Source: a virus
Lineage: Duplodnaviria > Heunggongvirae > Uroviricota > Caudoviricetes
IMG/VR virus record: IMGVR_UViG_2541047951_000003
Length of the DNA: 42,729 bases
Strand: one strand, 5' to 3'
Shown piece by piece: positions 6,163-10,240 of the stretch. Every line of letters begins with the position of its first letter. The first letter of the stretch is position 1. Below the pieces are notes generated by a model that was not told the DNA's origin, ran no database searches, and worked only from the letters and a program-made list of their open reading frames with translations. The position numbers were made by a program, and so were the translations under genes.

Positions 6163-6744
6163 ATGAACAACTCATGGTGGCAGGAACTAATGCATTTTTT
6201 CCTGCAAGGAATGACACTTAAACAGTTGATTCATATGCTAATCATCCTGATCATATTGATTATTGTTATGCCGGTAAGCGTAAAAGAATGGATAAACCTG
6301 CATAATCCAGAAATCCTTCCTCATTACTGGATGTATTACATCCTGTTGTTTTGCGTTAGCTATGTGCTTAACGGCGTTGTTAATTCCGCTTATCACGCTG
6401 TGACTGAAAGAATTGAGGTATTCGCTGCTCAGAAGCGCAAATCTAAAGAAGAAAAATATGTGCAAGATTTGTTTGATTCGTTAACTCTTGGAGAAAGAGC
6501 GTATTTGGCATTCGCTGTAGCCGCTAATAACCAGCTACAAACGGAAAAGGGCGCTCATGAATCAATTTCATTGCTCAAAAAAGGACTCCTCGTTCGAAGG
6601 CCTCCTGCTGTTGGATATCCTGATACCGACCGTTTCGTTATCCCTGAAAGCTATAGACATGAGTGCTACATTAGGTTTGCCGGGAAGGCAGACAGCCTTA
6701 TGGATGAACTTATCGCTCAGGATAAGCATGGCAAAAACAAGTAA
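6163..6744 (+). CDS. sieB: Superinfection exclusion protein B (SieB)
   Basis: 193 aa with hydrophobic N-terminal membrane segments (LIHMLIILIILIIVMPV...), matches lambda SieB; opposite strand to N as in lambda. Confidence 0.85.
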   Translation: MNNSWWQELMHFFLQGMTLKQLIHMLIILIILIIVMPVSVKEWINLHNPEILPHYWMYYILLFCVSYVLNGVVNSAYHAVTERIEVFAAQKRKSKEEKYVQDLFDSLTLGERAYLAFAVAANNQLQTEKGAHESISLLKKGLLVRRPPAVGYPDTDRFVIPESYRHECYIRFAGKADSLMDELIAQDKHGKNK

Positions 6745-6760
6745 TTAGCAAATGAATTTA

Positions 6761-7033
6761 TCATCTCGCCGTCAGTTGTTTTGATTTCCGGTAGCCTGCC
6801 GCGTAAAGAGCTACGTTCGGAAGACAAGTTGAACCTTCATATTTTCTGGTCAACGTTGTCAGAGTTATCACTTCTGCTCTCATTGCTGGTTTGAGCTTGC
6901 ATTGCAAGACCACTCGTGAAGGGGTTGGCCTGTGTAGCTTGTCGGAGCTGATCGCCTCCTGACTTTGCAGATTTGCGCGACGAGCTCTACGGCGAGAAGC
7001 TGCGGTGCCTTTAAATTCTGTTTTTCTGGACAT
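6761..7033 (-). CDS. N-type transcription antitermination protein (non-lambda allele), about 90 aa
   Basis: ATG at 7033 with GGAGG 6 nt upstream; N-terminal arginine-rich motif 'KGTAASRRRARRANL' fits the N-protein ARM pattern (lambda 'QTRRRERRAEK', phi21 'GTAKSRYKARRAEL'); positioned after pL/nutL; rest of protein unlike lambda N. Confidence 0.65.
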   Translation of the reverse strand: MSRKTEFKGTAASRRRARRANLQSQEAISSDKLHRPTPSRVVLQCKLKPAMRAEVITLTTLTRKYEGSTCLPNVALYAAGYRKSKQLTAR

Positions 7034-7131
7034 GGATTCCTCCCGAATAAACTTTGGCGATGCAATCTCGAAGCTCCTCCTGAGACGGTTGCTTCGGCAT
7101 TGCATCCCACAGCTTATGTGGTTGGGTGATC

Positions 7132-7177
7132 TGGCTTTTCAGCCACGTAGTCGAGAGTCGACGTTGTTTAAAGAGCC
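7132..7177 (-). promoter_or_regulatory. nutL candidate: boxA-like GGCTCTTTA (7169-7177 on minus strand) followed by boxB-like hairpin GGCUGAAAAGCC (7132-7145)
   Basis: Read on minus strand: boxA-like element then stem-loop with GAAAA loop upstream of the N-like gene; parallels lambda nut architecture. Confidence 0.5.
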
Positions 7178-7199
7178 TGCCAGTCTGTTCCATTTGGCT

Positions 7200-7330
7200 T
7201 CCAGCGTCCTGCTGACGGTTAAATAGTACGATATGTACTTTACAAGATCAATACAATTTGTTGTAAGTTGGCGTGGTTTTTTATAACGCTTTGTATTTAA
7301 TAGTGTTGTTTTTTAGCGTGGATGTATTGC
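7200..7330 (-). promoter_or_regulatory. Probable pL/oL region
   Basis: Intergenic AT-rich region upstream of N with repeated TTGTAT/TACAA motifs also present in the cI-cro intergenic region; exact operator boundaries not resolved. Confidence 0.35.
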
Positions 7331-7436
7331 CTCGGCGATGTAAGGAGAGATCAGAATTGCGTGGTTTAGTGGGTTGCATCTATTTATTTTTCAATAAATA
7401 TAATTGGTTATGTGTTTTTAGGTGGGCGAACGTGAG

Positions 7437-7464
7437 GCAAAGAAAACCCGGCGCTGAGGCCGGG
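7437..7464 (-). terminator. Rho-independent terminator after the rex-position cassette (minus strand)
   Basis: CCCGGC-GCTGAG-GCCGGG stem (7447-7464) followed on the minus strand by TTTTCTTTG. Confidence 0.55.
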
Positions 7465-7469
7465 TTGTA

Positions 7470-8222
7470 TTATGCTGCAAGTCTCTTAACCCAAGTCTCT
7501 CTTTTGGAGAATGGTAGAACTTGGCTTGATTCATGGAAGAGTAAGGAGAGTTGTTGCATTTGATCACCAATTGCTTCGCTGTCTATAACAACAAATCTGT
7601 TGTTATACTCCTCACTTGAAGCTTTAAGATCAATTAGTTTCCCAAGCAATGAGTAAGCACTATTCCAGCTTCCTCCGTGTTTCACGCTTGATGTAAAAAC
7701 GTATTTAGGTATGTCGGTTTTTATTGTTACAGGGACGGTAATTTGATGTCCACTCAAGCCATATACGTTTTCACGAAGAGAAAGTGCGTCTCTAAGCTCT
7801 GTGTGATATAGATAATCAATAACCATACTTTCAAACTTTTCAGCTTGAACTGGCTGATACCAGTCTAACGACAAAGTTGATGCGAGTATACCAGCTCTAA
7901 TTATGTTCGATGTAATCGCACCGACATCCTTTTCTGTTGCCCAAGCAATGATTTCTCCTCGAGCATTGAGTTCTGCGCCTTCTTTAAGCAGTAATTGTCG
8001 TATCTCATCAAGTCGTTTTTTGGTAAGCGAGATCCCTCTTGCCTCCATATTCATTAAGGCATCGCATCTGTCACTAACTAAATACCTACCATTGACTTCA
8101 CGGATAAAGGCACCGACATGCTCTCCATCATCACAGTAAGTGAATGGACTGATAATTCTCAAGGTCTTGCCTATTGGATGGCATTCGAAACCTAGTTGTG
8201 AGATCACTGTTGAGCACATCAT
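7470..8222 (-). CDS. Hypothetical protein, 250 aa; second gene of a two-gene cassette in the rexAB position
   Basis: Long ORF, ATG(8222) overlaps the upstream gene's stop (ATGATG/TGA); AT-rich by eye; no obvious TM helices; no motif recognised. Confidence 0.75.
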   Translation of the reverse strand: MMCSTVISQLGFECHPIGKTLRIISPFTYCDDGEHVGAFIREVNGRYLVSDRCDALMNMEARGISLTKKRLDEIRQLLLKEGAELNARGEIIAWATEKDVGAITSNIIRAGILASTLSLDWYQPVQAEKFESMVIDYLYHTELRDALSLRENVYGLSGHQITVPVTIKTDIPKYVFTSSVKHGGSWNSAYSLLGKLIDLKASSEEYNNRFVVIDSEAIGDQMQQLSLLFHESSQVLPFSKRETWVKRLAA

Positions 8223-8776
8223 ATTCCAAACCCCATTTGCCCCGACTCATCTTCAAGCGGTAAAGGTATTCTCCCAGAGTAAGTTATGTTCAGATGTTTA
8301 CAGAAGTAATTCCAATACCCTACCAGGTCATCTGGGTTTATGTCATCTTCGATTGGAAACGCTATTCTATCACTATAGTATCCAGCTTCTTCATAGTATA
8401 CATGGTAGTGAGCACCGTAAATGATATCTTGGTACTTCGGATGATCGACCTTGTAACTATTCGTGTGTTTGTCAAAGTGATAGGTATCTACCGCGAAAAC
8501 CCTCTTGTTATGATAGAAAGCAATAATATTTATTTTAGGGTAAGAAATCGGGTCATCAGGTTCTGAATCCTGATCTGGTTTCCATTTCAGTTCAAACTTT
8601 AGCCCTTGTATAGGTATACAATCCTCATCCAAGGGGATGATATGGGCTTGTAGCCACATATCAGAGCGACTTGGTTTCTGTTTCCATTTAACGCCAGAAA
8701 AGTTAACTATTTTTTTACAATAAAGTACTTTATCAACTTCTACTTGGCTTGGCTGATAATCATCTATTTTTGCCAA
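8219..8776 (-). CDS. Hypothetical protein, 185 aa (start probably TTG); first gene of the rex-position cassette
   Basis: ORF begins 38 nt after cI stop on the same strand; first in-frame start is TTG at 8776 (next Met at codon 40); Tyr/His/Asp-rich; no motif recognised. Confidence 0.65.
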   Translation of the reverse strand: MAKIDDYQPSQVEVDKVLYCKKIVNFSGVKWKQKPSRSDMWLQAHIIPLDEDCIPIQGLKFELKWKPDQDSEPDDPISYPKINIIAFYHNKRVFAVDTYHFDKHTNSYKVDHPKYQDIIYGAHYHVYYEEAGYYSDRIAFPIEDDINPDDLVGYWNYFCKHLNITYSGRIPLPLEDESGQMGFGI

Positions 8777-8815
8777 TGTTTACCGCCCTGTAAATTGTAG
8801 ATAAAAGTGGTTTCA

Positions 8816-9475
8816 TCACCCAAACGTCTCTTCAGGCCATTGGCTGGCGATAACTTTCCCCACAACGGAACAACTCTCATTGCATGGGATCATTGGGTAT
8901 TGTGGGTTTAGTGGCTGTAGAAACACCTGACCGCTATCCCTGATCAGTTTCTTGAAGGTAAATTCATCACCACCAAGTCTGGCTATGCAGAAATCGCCGG
9001 GCTCAACAGCTTGCTCAGGGTCAACCAGAATTAACATCCCGTCAGGAAAGCTGGGTTTGGAACCTGTTGGTGCGGTCATTGAGTTACCTTCAACCTCAAG
9101 CCAGAATGCAGAGTCACTGGCTTTTTTGGTTGTGCTTACCAATCTCTCCGCATCGCCTTTGGTAAAGGTTCTGAGTTCTGGAGAGAACATCCCAGCCTGA
9201 ACATGAGAAAAAACAGGGTACTCATATTGTTTTTTAACTGGGGCCGATGAGTATTCGCCAACAGGTGAAAATGTCCCGTCGTGGTTGAATGATATGTTAT
9301 CAATACCAAGGTATTTAAACACCACACCAATATCACTAAGAGATGGATGACGAGATCCGCGCAACCAGTGTCCAATCCCACCCTGCGTCATACCTAGCTC
9401 TTCGGCTAACTTCTCTTGAGTTATGCCGAGCTCTTTCATTCTGGATCTAGCCAGTTCATACCATTTCATTTTCAT
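8816..9475 (-). CDS. cI: CI repressor (HTH N-terminal domain of non-lambda specificity + lambda-type LexA-like C-terminal domain)
   Basis: C-terminal about 130 aa ([22 protein letters not shown]...[12 protein letters not shown]) matches lambda CI; N-terminal HTH ([23 protein letters not shown]) differs; start taken at MKMKWY (9475) or 9469. Confidence 0.85.
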
Positions 9476-9586
9476 GTCCTTATTATTACGCTCTGTACTG
9501 GAACCATCCATGCACAATGTGTATTTTTACTTGTATTCGCAAAGTACATATTGTATTTTTTTATTCGTGTTTACTATGGAGGGCAT
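9476..9586. promoter_or_regulatory. Divergent cI-cro control region (pRM/pR with operators)
   Basis: 111-bp AT-rich intergenic region between divergent cI and cro; three TGTATT(T) repeats at 9518-9528, 9531-9537, 9551-9562 and a TACA-N3-TGTA dyad at about 9545-9555. Confidence 0.5.
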
Positions 9587-9802
9587 ATGAGCAACCTACG
9601 AAAATATCGAGAGTCACTGAATATCTCTCAAACAACACTTGCTAAGGCAGTTGGATGCACACAGGGAGCTATCGGACATTGGGAATCTGGTCGTCGCTTC
9701 CCAGACCTTAAAACATGCCGTGCTCTTGTTGCGTGCCTAAACAAGTTAGGCGCAAAAGTCAGTCTTGATGACGTGTTCCCGCCGGAACACAAAGCCGCTT
9801 AA
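9587..9802 (+). CDS. cro: Cro-like HTH repressor (XRE family), 71 aa
   Basis: ATG at 9587 with GGAGGG upstream; HTH 'ISQTTLAKAVGCTQGAIGHWESG'; divergent from cI; not lambda Cro sequence. Confidence 0.8.
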   Translation: MSNLRKYRESLNISQTTLAKAVGCTQGAIGHWESGRRFPDLKTCRALVACLNKLGAKVSLDDVFPPEHKAA

Positions 9803-9812
9803 TAAGCGGATC

Positions 9813-9857
9813 CGCTCTTTGTAACAACGGACATTCGTCCTACGTCGCTGAAAAGCG
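9813..9857 (+). promoter_or_regulatory. nutR candidate: boxA CGCTCTTT (9813-9820) and boxB-like hairpin UCGCUGAAAAGCGA (9844-9857)
   Basis: boxA-like octamer just after cro stop followed by stem-loop with GAAAA loop, upstream of cII. Confidence 0.5.
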
Positions 9858-9943
9858 AGTTCCAAGATATCTGACCAACTAAGGCCATATGCGTTTCCAC
9901 GCATACCTTTCAACTAACTATTCACTATTGGAAATCTTAAGAA

Positions 9944-10240
9944 ATGGAAAGAACAAGTTACAGCAAACTATCACAGCGTGACGTTGATCGCGCAGAAACA
10001 GATTTACTTATCAATCTGTCAGCTATTACCCAGCGCGGTCTGGCAAAGATGATTGGCTGTCATGAATCGAAGATAAGCAGAACGGACTGGAGATTTATTG
10101 CTTCGGTCTTGTGTGCTTTCGGAATGGCATCAGACATCAGTCCGATTAGCAGGGCTTTTAAGTATGCGCTTGATGGACTCACCAATAAAAAACGCCCGGC
10201 GGCAACCGAGCGTTCTGAACAAATCCAGATGGAATTCTGA
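9944..10240 (+). CDS. cII: CII transcriptional activator (chimeric: non-lambda N-terminus, lambda-identical C-terminus)
   Basis: 98 aa; C-terminal 'LTNKKRPAATERSEQIQMEF' matches lambda CII; N-terminal two-thirds differs. Confidence 0.85.
   Translation: MERTSYSKLSQRDVDRAETDLLINLSAITQRGLAKMIGCHESKISRTDWRFIASVLCAFGMASDISPISRAFKYALDGLTNKKRPAATERSEQIQMEF

What the first reader, a model, noticed from the sequence alone, without database searches (positions are those of the whole stretch)
7437..8815. Uncharacterised two-gene cassette in the rexAB position of the immunity region (candidate lysogen-expressed exclusion/defence system)
Two translationally coupled ORFs (185 aa at 8219-8776, then 250 aa at 7470-8222, minus strand) sit exactly where lambda carries rexA-rexB: directly downstream of cI on the same strand (38-nt gap, so probably co-transcribed from pRM) and upstream of a hairpin+T-run terminator (7437-7464) and pL/oL. 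The second gene's ATG overlaps the first gene's stop (ATGATG/TGA). The block is visibly more AT-rich than the flanking phage backbone. Neither protein resembles RexA/RexB or any other family I can recognise. Neither has an obvious membrane helix, unlike RexB. The first gene apparently starts at TTG. The region is flanked by lambda-identical sequence (cI C-terminal domain on one side; sieB/ral on the other, beyond a non-lambda N), suggesting module replacement at a known defence-island hotspot. Lysogen-expressed genes at this locus in other lambdoid phages typically mediate abortive infection or superinfection exclusion.
Basis: partly seen in the sequence, partly recalled or inferred. Interest (0 to 1): 0.85.

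Follow-up and report, generated by a model that had tools for sequence, protein, structure and literature searches.

The report
Untested two-gene defence candidate replacing rexAB
A lambda-like phage carries, exactly where lambda has its rexAB exclusion genes, a conserved pair of soluble proteins of unknown function that two computational resources already flag as likely anti-phage defence genes but that, as far as I could find, nobody has tested.

Summary
Two overlapping minus-strand genes sit between the cI stop codon and a strong terminator: A (8219-8776, 185 aa, TTG start) and B (7470-8222, 250 aa). Lambda homology breaks within a few bases of each end, so the pair replaces rexA-rexB.

Both genes are real. 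The unsaturated pair gives dN/dS 0.12 and 0.06. The A-then-B order holds in all 13 related loci, down to 21-30% identity. A cI-type repressor lies upstream in nine of them.

B is a chaperone-like DUF1828 domain fused to a PD-(D/E)xK-fold (DUF1829) domain that lacks the canonical catalytic motif. A has no fold match, but has an invariant Asp/His/Asn cluster and a conserved disordered tail.

The pair is not unnoticed. B is homologous to the PADLOC candidate PDC-M24B. Both exact proteins are listed as "Predicted novel defense gene" by DefensePredictor, but were not among its 94 tested units.

The cassette occurs in 4.4% of complete E. coli genomes, including Nissle 1917. My verdict is a well-supported but untested defence candidate, with about 0.5 probability of being a defence system. 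The proposed mechanism, a toxin-antitoxin-like module with A as effector and B as regulator, is inferred only.

The parts
8816..9517 (-). cI repressor (HTH_3 + Peptidase_S24). Its C-terminal part is 93% identical to lambda cI at the DNA level. It is the upstream gene of the presumed pRM transcript.
   Evidence: Pfam Peptidase_S24 E 1.3e-28 and HTH_3 E 2.1e-10. Window 8815-9226 is 93.4% identical to lambda cI. Annotated as cI in PhiR57_1.
8777..8815 (-). 39-nt cI-A spacer with no terminator-like site. It holds the right-hand breakpoint of lambda homology, at 8815.
   Evidence: One weak promoter-like site (8794-8766, 9 of 12 matches) lies here, but such sites are no more frequent in the region than chance (5 found, 6.5 expected).
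8219..8776 (-). Gene A, 185 aa, TTG start. A soluble, mostly beta protein with no known fold. It has an invariant D97/H104/N106/H123/H125 cluster and a conserved but disordered C-terminal tail (PLEDESGQxG). Identical to the RefSeq product WP_001062368.1 by inference from 100% DNA identity to the Nissle locus.
   Evidence: DefensePredictor log-odds 4.90-5.42. Nissle locus annotation.
7470..8222 (-). Gene B, 250 aa, whose ATG overlaps the stop codon of A. The N-terminal DUF1828 domain (about 1-121) has a YbjN / type-III-secretion-chaperone-like fold. The C-terminal domain (about 130-250, DUF1829) has a PD-(D/E)xK fold without the canonical catalytic motif. The C-terminus is conserved as LAA-COOH. 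Identical to WP_000968518.1 by inference from 100% DNA identity to the Nissle locus.
   Evidence: HHpred DUF1828 99.5% and DUF1829 98.8%, and log-odds 5.64, in PMC13092281 Table S5. Nissle locus annotation.
7437..7466 (-). Intrinsic terminator of the cI-A-B unit, homologous to 933W tM and to the stretch just downstream of lambda rexB. It starts 3 nt after the B stop codon.
7345..7466 (-). Left conserved flank, 90% identical to the lambda sequence immediately downstream of rexB. The left-hand breakpoint of the module swap is at 7466.
   Evidence: with lambda coordinates.
7221..7241 (.). Operator-like palindrome (AGTACATATCGTACT) in the oL/pL region, matched by a related copy in oR at 9541-9561. 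The two copies delimit the immunity region that contains the cassette.
   Evidence: Inverted repeat I1, 21 nt, 86% complementary. Sequence.

Best explanation
The cassette is a two-protein cytoplasmic anti-phage (exclusion or abortive-infection) module. It is carried as exchangeable cargo in the rexAB slot of lambdoid prophages and is expressed in lysogens on the cI transcript from pRM.

Proposed working, all inferred:
1. A and B are made in a fixed ratio through translational coupling. A is kept low by its weak GTG/TTG start codon.
2. A is the enzymatic effector. It has an orphan beta-rich fold and an invariant Asp/His/Asn cluster that looks like a metal or active site.
3. B is the adaptor or regulator. 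Its chaperone-fold DUF1828 domain holds A, possibly through A's conserved disordered C-terminal tail. Its DUF1829 domain, a PD-(D/E)xK fold without the catalytic motif, binds nucleic acid or a phage cue.
4. B may be proteolytically labile through its conserved LAA C-terminus.
5. Infection by a heterologous phage removes or titrates B, or changes the complex. That frees A to stop phage or host processes.

Shown here: gene structure, selection, synteny, folds and family links. Inferred: co-transcription, complex formation, which protein is the effector, the trigger, and the defence function itself. My confidence of 0.5 is for 'this is a defence or exclusion system'. The specific assignment of A as effector and B as regulator deserves about 0.25.
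For: Position and anatomy:
- The pair replaces rexA-rexB between conserved flanks.
- No terminator-like site lies between cI and A, and a strong terminator follows B.
- The same slot holds stk in 933W and rexAB in lambda.

Real, co-functioning genes:
- The only unsaturated pair gives dN/dS 0.12 (A) and 0.06 (B).
- A lies directly upstream of B in all 13 related loci, down to 21-28% (A) and about 31% (B) identity.
- Of the 10 related loci whose junction was read plus the window, 8 of 11 have a 4-nt ATGA overlap, and 8 of 11 A genes start with GTG or TTG.
- A cI-type HTH + S24 repressor lies upstream on the same strand in nine related loci, although those repressors are highly diverged.

Independent defence predictions:
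- All nine diverse B proteins hit only PADLOC PDC-M24B (best E 1.8e-15).
- Some A relatives hit only PDC-M24A / DUF6978, and weakly (best E about 1e-4).
- Both exact proteins are 'Predicted novel defense gene' in DefensePredictor, with log-odds 5.64 and 4.90-5.42.
- Tested units with similar log-odds validated at 10 of 26 (my count).
- A cI-plus-hypothetical unit (DS-34) did validate there.

Retention: both genes are intact in the decayed Nissle 1917 prophage, whose left arm is replaced by IS elements.

Assignment of roles:
- A keeps D97, N106, H123 and H125 invariant, and H104 in at least 90% of sequences, at 21% identity.
- B's nuclease-fold domain has no conserved D...(D/E)xK. K173 varies, and only S157, G158, T177, D198 and D214 persist.
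- A's tail has pLDDT below 50 yet is nearly invariant.
- B ends in LAA in 21 of 28 relatives.
- DUF1829 occurs in the non-kinase partner of the validated HipAD/DS-6 system, which is hypothesised to be antitoxin-like.
Against: - I found no experimental evidence of any kind for this pair: no expression data and no phenotype.
- It was not among the 94 units DefensePredictor tested.
- At its score most tested units failed (16 of 26).
- PADLOC PDC candidates validate only about half the time or less: 4 of 8 in PMC12881386 and 0 of 2 in PMC12409345.
- The link of A to PDC-M24A / DUF6978 is weak and partial. It scores 22 bits against a gathering threshold of 29.6 and covers only the C-terminal half.
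- No coordinates were available, so I did not show that the conserved residues cluster in space.
- The LAA-degron and tail-docking ideas rest on resemblance recalled from memory, not on tests.
- Resistance phenotypes of related prophages have been attributed to other elements: the repressor in Nissle and the sRNA svsR in NC101.
Confidence: 0.5

Rival explanations
1. Same defence function, opposite wiring. B is the effector, a non-canonical PD-(D/E)xK-fold nuclease that cuts phage or host nucleic acid. Its DUF1828 domain is the sensing or auto-inhibitory module, and A is the sensor or regulator.
For: - HHpred places the domain in the PDDEXK clan.
- 13 of the further validated DefensePredictor systems contain PD-(D/E)xK domains.
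- Invariant S157-G158-(H159), T177, D198 and D214 could form a variant site. From my own knowledge, the NgoMIV/Cfr10I family has its catalytic acid relocated to a helix.
- A evolves faster than B (for example 70% against 84% identity in Salmonella), as sensors often do.
Against: - No conserved acidic residue lies in strands 2 or 3, and K173 is not conserved in distant members.
- A carries the more convincing invariant polar cluster.
- In the one validated DUF1829 system, the DUF1829 protein is not the catalytic component.
Confidence: 0.2
2. Not primarily anti-phage. The pair is a toxin-antitoxin-like addiction or stabilisation module, or a regulator of lysogeny and induction, that benefits the prophage itself. 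This would be comparable to the non-exclusion roles proposed for lambda RexB (from my own knowledge).
For: - The pair has a tight two-gene architecture with overlap and a weak start codon on the first gene.
- B has a conserved LAA-like C-terminus.
- The pair is strictly linked to the repressor gene across genera.
- It is retained in a defective prophage, as addiction modules are.
- Most similarly scored predictions failed to protect.
Against: - Both defence predictors flag it.
- The slot is a documented home of exclusion functions: annotated RexA/RexB-like exclusion proteins in lambda and stk in 933W, a kinase reported to exclude HK97 (from my own knowledge).
- TA modules and abortive-infection systems are not mutually exclusive.
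Confidence: 0.2
3. A lysogenic-conversion or otherwise neutral moron with no role in phage-phage conflict, carried along with the immunity region.
For: No phenotype is known. The AT-rich composition (39.6% GC) marks it as foreign cargo, but says nothing about function.
Against: - Strong purifying selection acts on both genes.
- Synteny and gene overlap are conserved across Enterobacterales and beyond.
- The cassette is present in 239 of 5,426 complete E. coli genomes at high identity.
- The proteins are soluble and cytoplasmic with enzyme-like conservation, which is unlike typical surface conversion factors.
Confidence: 0.1

Closest known systems
Lambda RexA-RexB
   Same: Identical genomic slot, between the cI stop codon and the terminator upstream of oL/pL, on the cI strand. 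Also a two-gene unit, presumably expressed in lysogens from pRM. Annotated in lambda as exclusion proteins.
   Different: No sequence or family relationship: Pfam finds no RexA or RexB match. RexB is a multi-pass membrane protein (from my own knowledge), whereas neither protein here has a hydrophobic segment. The folds are unrelated.
PADLOC candidate system PDC-M24 (A + B)
   Same: A two-gene A-then-B system. B aligns end to end with PDC-M24B (residues 2-249 on profile positions 4-254 of 256; E 4.7e-10). All nine diverse B relatives hit only this family. A and some of its relatives hit only PDC-M24A.
   Different: The A match is weak and covers only the C-terminal half (E about 5e-4). PDC-M24 is itself an untested candidate, predicted by embedding within known defence loci, and I found no text that mentions it. 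This clade is tied to prophage immunity regions instead.
HipAD / DS-6 (DefensePredictor; Brenes & Laub 2025)
   Same: A validated two-protein E. coli defence system whose second protein carries DUF1829, the domain assigned by HHpred to B's C-terminal half. It is hypothesised to work as a toxin-antitoxin pair, with the DUF1829 protein binding the toxin and DNA.
   Different: The partner there is a HipA-family kinase and the N-terminal domain is DUF3037. Here the partner is an orphan-fold protein and the N-terminal domain is DUF1828. No kinase is present.
933W cI-stk region
   Same: The same slot and the same terminator. A 62-nt stretch that includes it (window 7402-7464) is 98% identical to 933W, where its stem is annotated tM. 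The cargo lies downstream of cI.
   Different: The cargo is four unrelated ORFs, including a eukaryotic-like Ser/Thr kinase.
PD-(D/E)xK nuclease-based defence proteins in general (restriction enzymes, Can2/Card1)
   Different: The defining catalytic D...(D/E)xK residues are not conserved in this family. There is no CARF, methylase or helicase partner.

Membership tests
Lambda RexAB | RexA-family sensor protein (Pfam PF15969) | tested here: not met
   A Pfam scan of both proteins at E up to 1 gives no RexA hit.
Lambda RexAB | RexB-type polytopic membrane protein | tested here: not met
   The maximum 19-residue hydropathy is 0.45 (A) and 1.19 (B). Both AF2 models are soluble globular folds.
Lambda RexAB | Location directly downstream of cI, on its strand, before the terminator that precedes oL/pL | tested here: met
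PADLOC PDC-M24 | Protein matching the PDC-M24B profile | tested here: met
   E 4.7e-10 over the full length. 9 of 9 diverse relatives match, with best E 1.8e-15 and no other PADLOC family hit.
PADLOC PDC-M24 | Adjacent protein matching the PDC-M24A profile | tested here: inconclusive
   E 4.8e-4, 18 bits, covering only residues 104-163. Three PDC-M24A models are hit by 3, 3 and 1 of 15 relatives. PADLOC's own score cut-offs are not available here.
Pfam DUF1828 (PF08861) | Score above the gathering threshold | tested here: met
   33.5 bits against 22 for B residues 26-110. 9 of 9 relatives match.
Pfam DUF1829 / PDDEXK clan | Profile match to DUF1829 | tested here: inconclusive
   hmmscan gives no hit for the window protein, and 1 of 9 relatives hits at E 0.049. 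HHpred in PMC13092281 Table S5 gives 98.8% probability for residues 155-241.
Pfam DUF1829 / PDDEXK clan | PD-(D/E)xK alpha-beta-beta-beta-alpha-beta fold | tested here: met
Pfam DUF1829 / PDDEXK clan | Conserved catalytic acidic residues and lysine (D...(D/E)xK) | tested here: not met
   There is no invariant acidic residue in strands 2 or 3, and K173 varies. Only S157, G158, T177, D198 and D214 are invariant in the domain's core strands, loops and helix, with H159 conserved in most sequences.
Pfam DUF6978 (PF22398) | Score above the gathering threshold | tested here: not met
   22 bits against 29.6 for A, covering only profile positions 81-133. 5 of 15 relatives hit, with best E 1.1e-4.
Type II toxin-antitoxin / TA-based abortive infection | One toxic protein neutralised by a labile partner through direct binding | not testable with these tools
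   Only indirect hints exist: gene overlap, a weak start codon on A, LAA-COOH on B, and a conserved disordered tail on A.
HipAD / DS-6 | HipA-family kinase partner | tested here: not met
   Neither protein has a kinase domain in Pfam or NCBIfam.

The most novel reading that the evidence does not exclude
A-B is a new type of repressor-linked abortive-infection module. Its effector (A) would be an enzyme with a previously unseen fold and a His/Asp metal site. A is held inactive by a pseudo-nuclease (B) that combines a secretion-chaperone-like domain, gripping A's conserved C-terminal peptide, with a catalytically dead PD-(D/E)xK domain. B's LAA C-terminus would make it a ClpXP-timed fuse. If true, the module would also account for part of the unexplained lambdoid-phage resistance of E. 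coli Nissle 1917, and possibly of NC101's NC-SV prophage.
Probability: 0.15. Interest if true: 0.75.

Novelty: new variant of a known kind. Interest (0 to 1): 0.55.

Why it matters
- **A new effector fold.** If the pair protects against phages, it adds an uncharacterised mechanism, with an orphan-fold putative enzyme, to the set of systems that prophages swap in and out of the classic rexAB slot.
- **Presence in widely used strains.** The cassette is in about 4% of complete E. coli genomes, including the probiotic Nissle 1917, the reference strain ATCC 25922 and the species type strain. Its activity would therefore bear on phage therapy and on engineering in those strains.
- **Bearing on two published observations.** Bury et al. 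2018 concluded that unidentified genes of Nissle prophage 3, beyond the repressor, must contribute to resistance against lambda and Stx phages. The NC101 study attributes prophage-mediated protection to an sRNA at the 3' end of cI, directly next to where this cassette sits in a close relative of that strain.
- **A ready test case.** The pair is a cheap way to test two computational defence predictors.

Tried and rejected
- **PDB sequence searches.** Neither single sequences nor family profiles found a real relative. A hits the designed six-blade propeller SAKe6AC-LB at E 4e-6 (single sequence) and 3e-12 (profile), but no individual stretch passes. I rejected it as weak repeat matches summed together.
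- **AFDB50 fold search.** The library was not available.
- **Model coordinates.** They are not exposed, so I could not test whether the conserved residues cluster in space.
- **NCBIfam.** Nothing meaningful.
- **Rfam.** A scan of 6500-10200 at E up to 0.1 found nothing, so I could not locate an svsR/C0293-like RNA this way.
- **Internal promoter between cI and A.** There is one weak consensus match, but the region holds no more such sites than shuffled sequence does. I make no claim about it.
- **Literature.** Searches for PDC-M24, DUF1828, DUF6978 and the RefSeq accessions or locus tags found nothing relevant in main texts. Brenes & Laub 2025, the source of the PhiR phages, could not be retrieved by DOI or PMID.
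- **dN/dS against the window.** Synonymous sites are saturated in most pairs, so I relied only on the L004-L005 comparison.
Full report
**What the window is.** The window is a lambda-like temperate phage. Its first 25 kb are 99.9% identical to Escherichia phage PhiR63_2 and 99.5% to PhiR57_1. Those phages belong to the temperate panel that PMC13190303 cites to Brenes & Laub 2025. The annotated relative shows the standard lambdoid order around the finding: exo-bet-gam-kil-cIII-ea10-ral, sieB, N, two hypothetical proteins, cI, cro, cII, O, P.

**Checking the observation.**
A is 8219-8776(-), 185 aa, starting at TTG. B is 7470-8222(-), 250 aa.
- B's ATG overlaps A's TGA in a 4-nt ATGA.
- The cI stop codon and A's start are separated by 39 nt. 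No terminator-like site lies between them.
- Three bases after B's stop codon comes an 8-bp, GC-rich hairpin followed by a T-run. It folds at -16.8 kcal/mol with z = -3.2. Its homologue in 933W is annotated 'tM; putative terminator for pM transcript'.
- An operator-like palindrome shared by 7224-7238 and about 9543-9557 marks oL and oR.
- The order on the minus strand is therefore oR/pRM, cI, A, B, terminator, oL/pL.
- Neither protein has a hydrophobic segment.
- The cassette is AT-rich: 39.6% GC against 50.3% for the window. The neighbouring sieB and ea10 genes are equally AT-rich.

**Module replacement.** Against lambda, DNA homology (93%) runs through the C-terminal part of cI and stops at 8815, one base below the cI stop codon. 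It resumes (90%) at 7466-7345, which corresponds to the lambda sequence immediately downstream of rexB. The cassette therefore occupies precisely the rexA-rexB interval. In 933W the same interval, bounded by the same terminator, holds four unrelated ORFs including the stk kinase.

**Are the genes real and linked?**
- A has full-length relatives of 183-187 aa at 59-71% identity in Klebsiella, Salmonella, Yersinia, Buttiauxella and Xenorhabdus. B has relatives at 47-84% across Enterobacterales and in Aeromonas.
- In the one pair where synonymous sites are not saturated (two Providencia species), dN/dS is 0.12 for A and 0.06 for B.
- A lies immediately upstream of B in all eight species-representative genome loci and in five metagenomic loci. 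This holds down to 21-28% identity for A and about 31% for B.
- I read the A-B junction in 10 of these related loci. With the window that makes 11, and 8 of the 11 have the 4-nt ATGA overlap.
- Gene A starts with GTG or TTG in 8 of those 11.
- An HTH + S24-peptidase repressor sits upstream on the same strand in all seven genome loci with enough flank and in two metagenomic loci. Those repressors share as little as 34% identity with this cI, or none detectable. One small gene is sometimes inserted between the repressor and A.
- The family is rare. An exhaustive profile search of 1.84 billion cluster representatives found only 20 A-family members at E up to 0.001.
- Within E. coli the cassette is common. 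It is present at 80% coverage or more in 239 of 5,426 complete genomes, including Nissle 1917, ATCC 25922 and the type strain.
- In Nissle the prophage has lost its left arm to IS elements and cI is annotated in fragments, yet A and B are intact.

**What the proteins look like: B.**
- B passes Pfam's DUF1828 threshold.
- Its AF2 model (pLDDT 83) has two domains.
- An independent HHpred annotation in PMC13092281 assigns residues 155-241 to DUF1829, clan PDDEXK, at 98.8%.
- The catalytic signature is absent. Across divergent members no acidic residue is conserved in strands 2 or 3, and K173 varies. What persists is G155-x-S157-G158-(H159), P164, T177, D198 and D214.
- B's C-terminus is LAA-COOH in 21 of 28 close relatives. 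The other seven end in LVA, LCA, LCT or IAS.

**What the proteins look like: A.**
- A's model (pLDDT 82, pTM 0.81) is a mostly beta protein with two helices.
- It has no Pfam family above threshold.
- At 21% identity it still keeps K22, W31, R92, D97, N106, G121, H123, H125, F158 and P173 invariant. H104 is kept in at least 90% of sequences. The D...HxN...GxHxH pattern lies on neighbouring strands and looks like a metal or active site.
- Its last 13 residues are predicted disordered (pLDDT below 50), yet they are almost invariant (PLEDESGQxG). A GQ-x-x-LL-like motif persists in distant members. That is typical of a docking peptide.

**Links to known or predicted systems.**
- In PADLOC-DB, B aligns end to end with the candidate PDC-M24B (E 4.7e-10). 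All nine diverse relatives hit only that family (best E 1.8e-15).
- A, and a minority of its relatives, hit only PDC-M24A and its Pfam counterpart DUF6978. These hits are weak and cover only the C-terminal half. The pair is best described as a divergent sister clade of PDC-M24.
- PDCs are untested candidates, predicted from recurrent embedding in known defence loci. When a few were tested, 4 of 8 and 0 of 2 protected. PDC-M24 itself appears in no searchable text.
- The Nissle locus, 100% identical in DNA to window 7400-8850, annotates the two genes as WP_000968518.1 (B) and WP_001062368.1 (A). DefensePredictor's supplementary tables (PMC13092281) list both accessions as 'Predicted novel defense gene', with log-odds 5.64 and 4.90-5.42.
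- Neither accession is in that paper's complete list of 94 experimentally tested units.
- By my count from that list, units with log-odds within 2 of 5.64 validated at 10 of 26, or 38%.
- Two precedents from the same study are relevant. A 'cI + hypothetical protein' unit (DS-34) did protect. DUF1829 was newly implicated in defence through DS-6/HipAD, where the DUF1829-containing protein is the non-catalytic partner of a HipA-like kinase and is hypothesised to act like an antitoxin that also binds DNA.

**How it most likely works.**
- Shown: a conserved, selected, translationally coupled pair of soluble proteins in the lysogen-expressed slot of lambdoid immunity regions. Two independent predictors flag it.
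- Inferred: the pair is co-transcribed with cI from pRM, forms a complex, and acts against superinfecting phages.
- On wiring, conservation patterns favour A as the enzyme and B as the adaptor or regulator. A has an invariant polar cluster. B has a degenerate nuclease fold, and its chaperone-type domain is of a kind known to bind extended peptides.
- A's conserved disordered tail is an obvious candidate ligand for that chaperone-type domain.
- The weak start codon on A and the LAA terminus on B fit toxin-antitoxin logic, in which the neutraliser must be in excess and may be labile. LAA resembles the end of the ssrA tag recognised by ClpX, which I recall from memory and did not test.
- I put about 0.5 on 'a defence or exclusion system' and about 0.25 on this particular wiring.
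- The main rival keeps the function but makes B a non-canonical nuclease effector. Other rivals are a prophage-stabilising TA or regulatory module, and neutral cargo.

**Novelty and significance.**
PADLOC's candidate family and DefensePredictor both already point at it.
- What remains open is everything functional. No accessible paper tests it. A's fold and putative active site are unlike anything solved.
- I could not read Brenes & Laub 2025, so an experimental test there cannot be excluded.
- The cassette may bear on two published puzzles. Bury et al. 2018 concluded that prophage-3 genes other than the repressor must contribute to Nissle's resistance to lambda and Stx phages. The NC101 study assigns prophage NC-SV's protective effect to an sRNA at the 3' end of cI. 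Strain SF-468, which that paper compares with NC101, carries this cassette at 100% identity. The cassette may therefore lie directly downstream of that sRNA and contribute to the whole-prophage deletion phenotype. I did not verify this.
- I rate it a new variant of a known kind, namely repressor-linked prophage defence cargo, and of moderate interest.

Noticed in passing
window 8816-8900 (3' end of cI) and the adjacent cassette 7470-8776: A 2026 paper (PMC12803456) attributes the phage protection given by the lambdoid prophage NC-SV of E. coli NC101 to svsR, a 77-nt sRNA 'at the 3' end of the cI gene'. Strain SF-468, which that paper compares with NC101, carries the A-B cassette at 100% identity (H40). 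NC-SV may therefore have A-B directly downstream of svsR, and this could contribute to the whole-prophage deletion phenotype. An Rfam scan found no sRNA family here.
   Followed up: partly
L017 (E. coli Nissle 1917, NZ_CP007799.1 1328725-1336175): The Nissle prophage carrying this cassette is decayed. An integrase fragment and IS3-family elements replace the whole exo-bet-gam-ral arm, and cI is annotated as two fragments (a 198-nt HTH ORF and a 'LexA family protein, missing N-terminus' pseudogene). sieB, N, A and B remain intact. Bury et al. 2018 report that this prophage's repressor gene is highly expressed and protective.
   Followed up: partly
window 8774-8776, and A-gene starts in L002-L014: Gene A uses a non-ATG start codon in 8 of 11 loci: GTG in seven, TTG in the window, ATG in three. 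The first residues (Met-Ala-Lys) are invariant in the 18 close relatives, and B almost always starts with ATG. This is a conserved weak start on the first gene of a coupled pair.
   Followed up: yes
window 7470-7481 (B C-terminus); alignments A2 and A4: B ends in Leu-Ala-Ala-COOH in 21 of 28 close relatives, and in LAA or IAA in 6 of 9 divergent ones. This resembles the C-terminal end of the ssrA degradation tag and may be a ClpXP degron. It is a resemblance only and was not tested.
   Followed up: partly
L009 (Actinomadura rugatobispora JCM 3366, 518-bp contig): A 518-bp contig in an actinomycete assembly encodes the A-B junction at 64% and 82% protein identity to the enterobacterial cassette. 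This is most likely contamination of that assembly, not a genuine actinobacterial copy.
   Followed up: no
L010 / L011 (metagenomic contigs): The most distant A-B pair (A 23% identical) lies on an element that encodes a D5_N/DUF5906 primase-helicase and an SRAP protein, not next to an S24 repressor. The module therefore also travels on other mobile elements, possibly satellites.
   Followed up: no
window 6163-6744 (+): The sieB gene is present, but it gives no DNA-level match to lambda sieB. The adjacent ral-ea10-cIII block is 98% lambda-like, and the N gene shares only its last 66 nt with 933W N. Module boundaries in this early-left region are mosaic on a sub-kilobase scale.
   Followed up: partly
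L007 5999-6004 (Pantoea latae): In this locus the B reading frame, as aligned by tblastn, begins at a GTA codon, and the nearby ATG is in another frame. The true start of B, or a sequencing error, is unresolved there.
   Followed up: no
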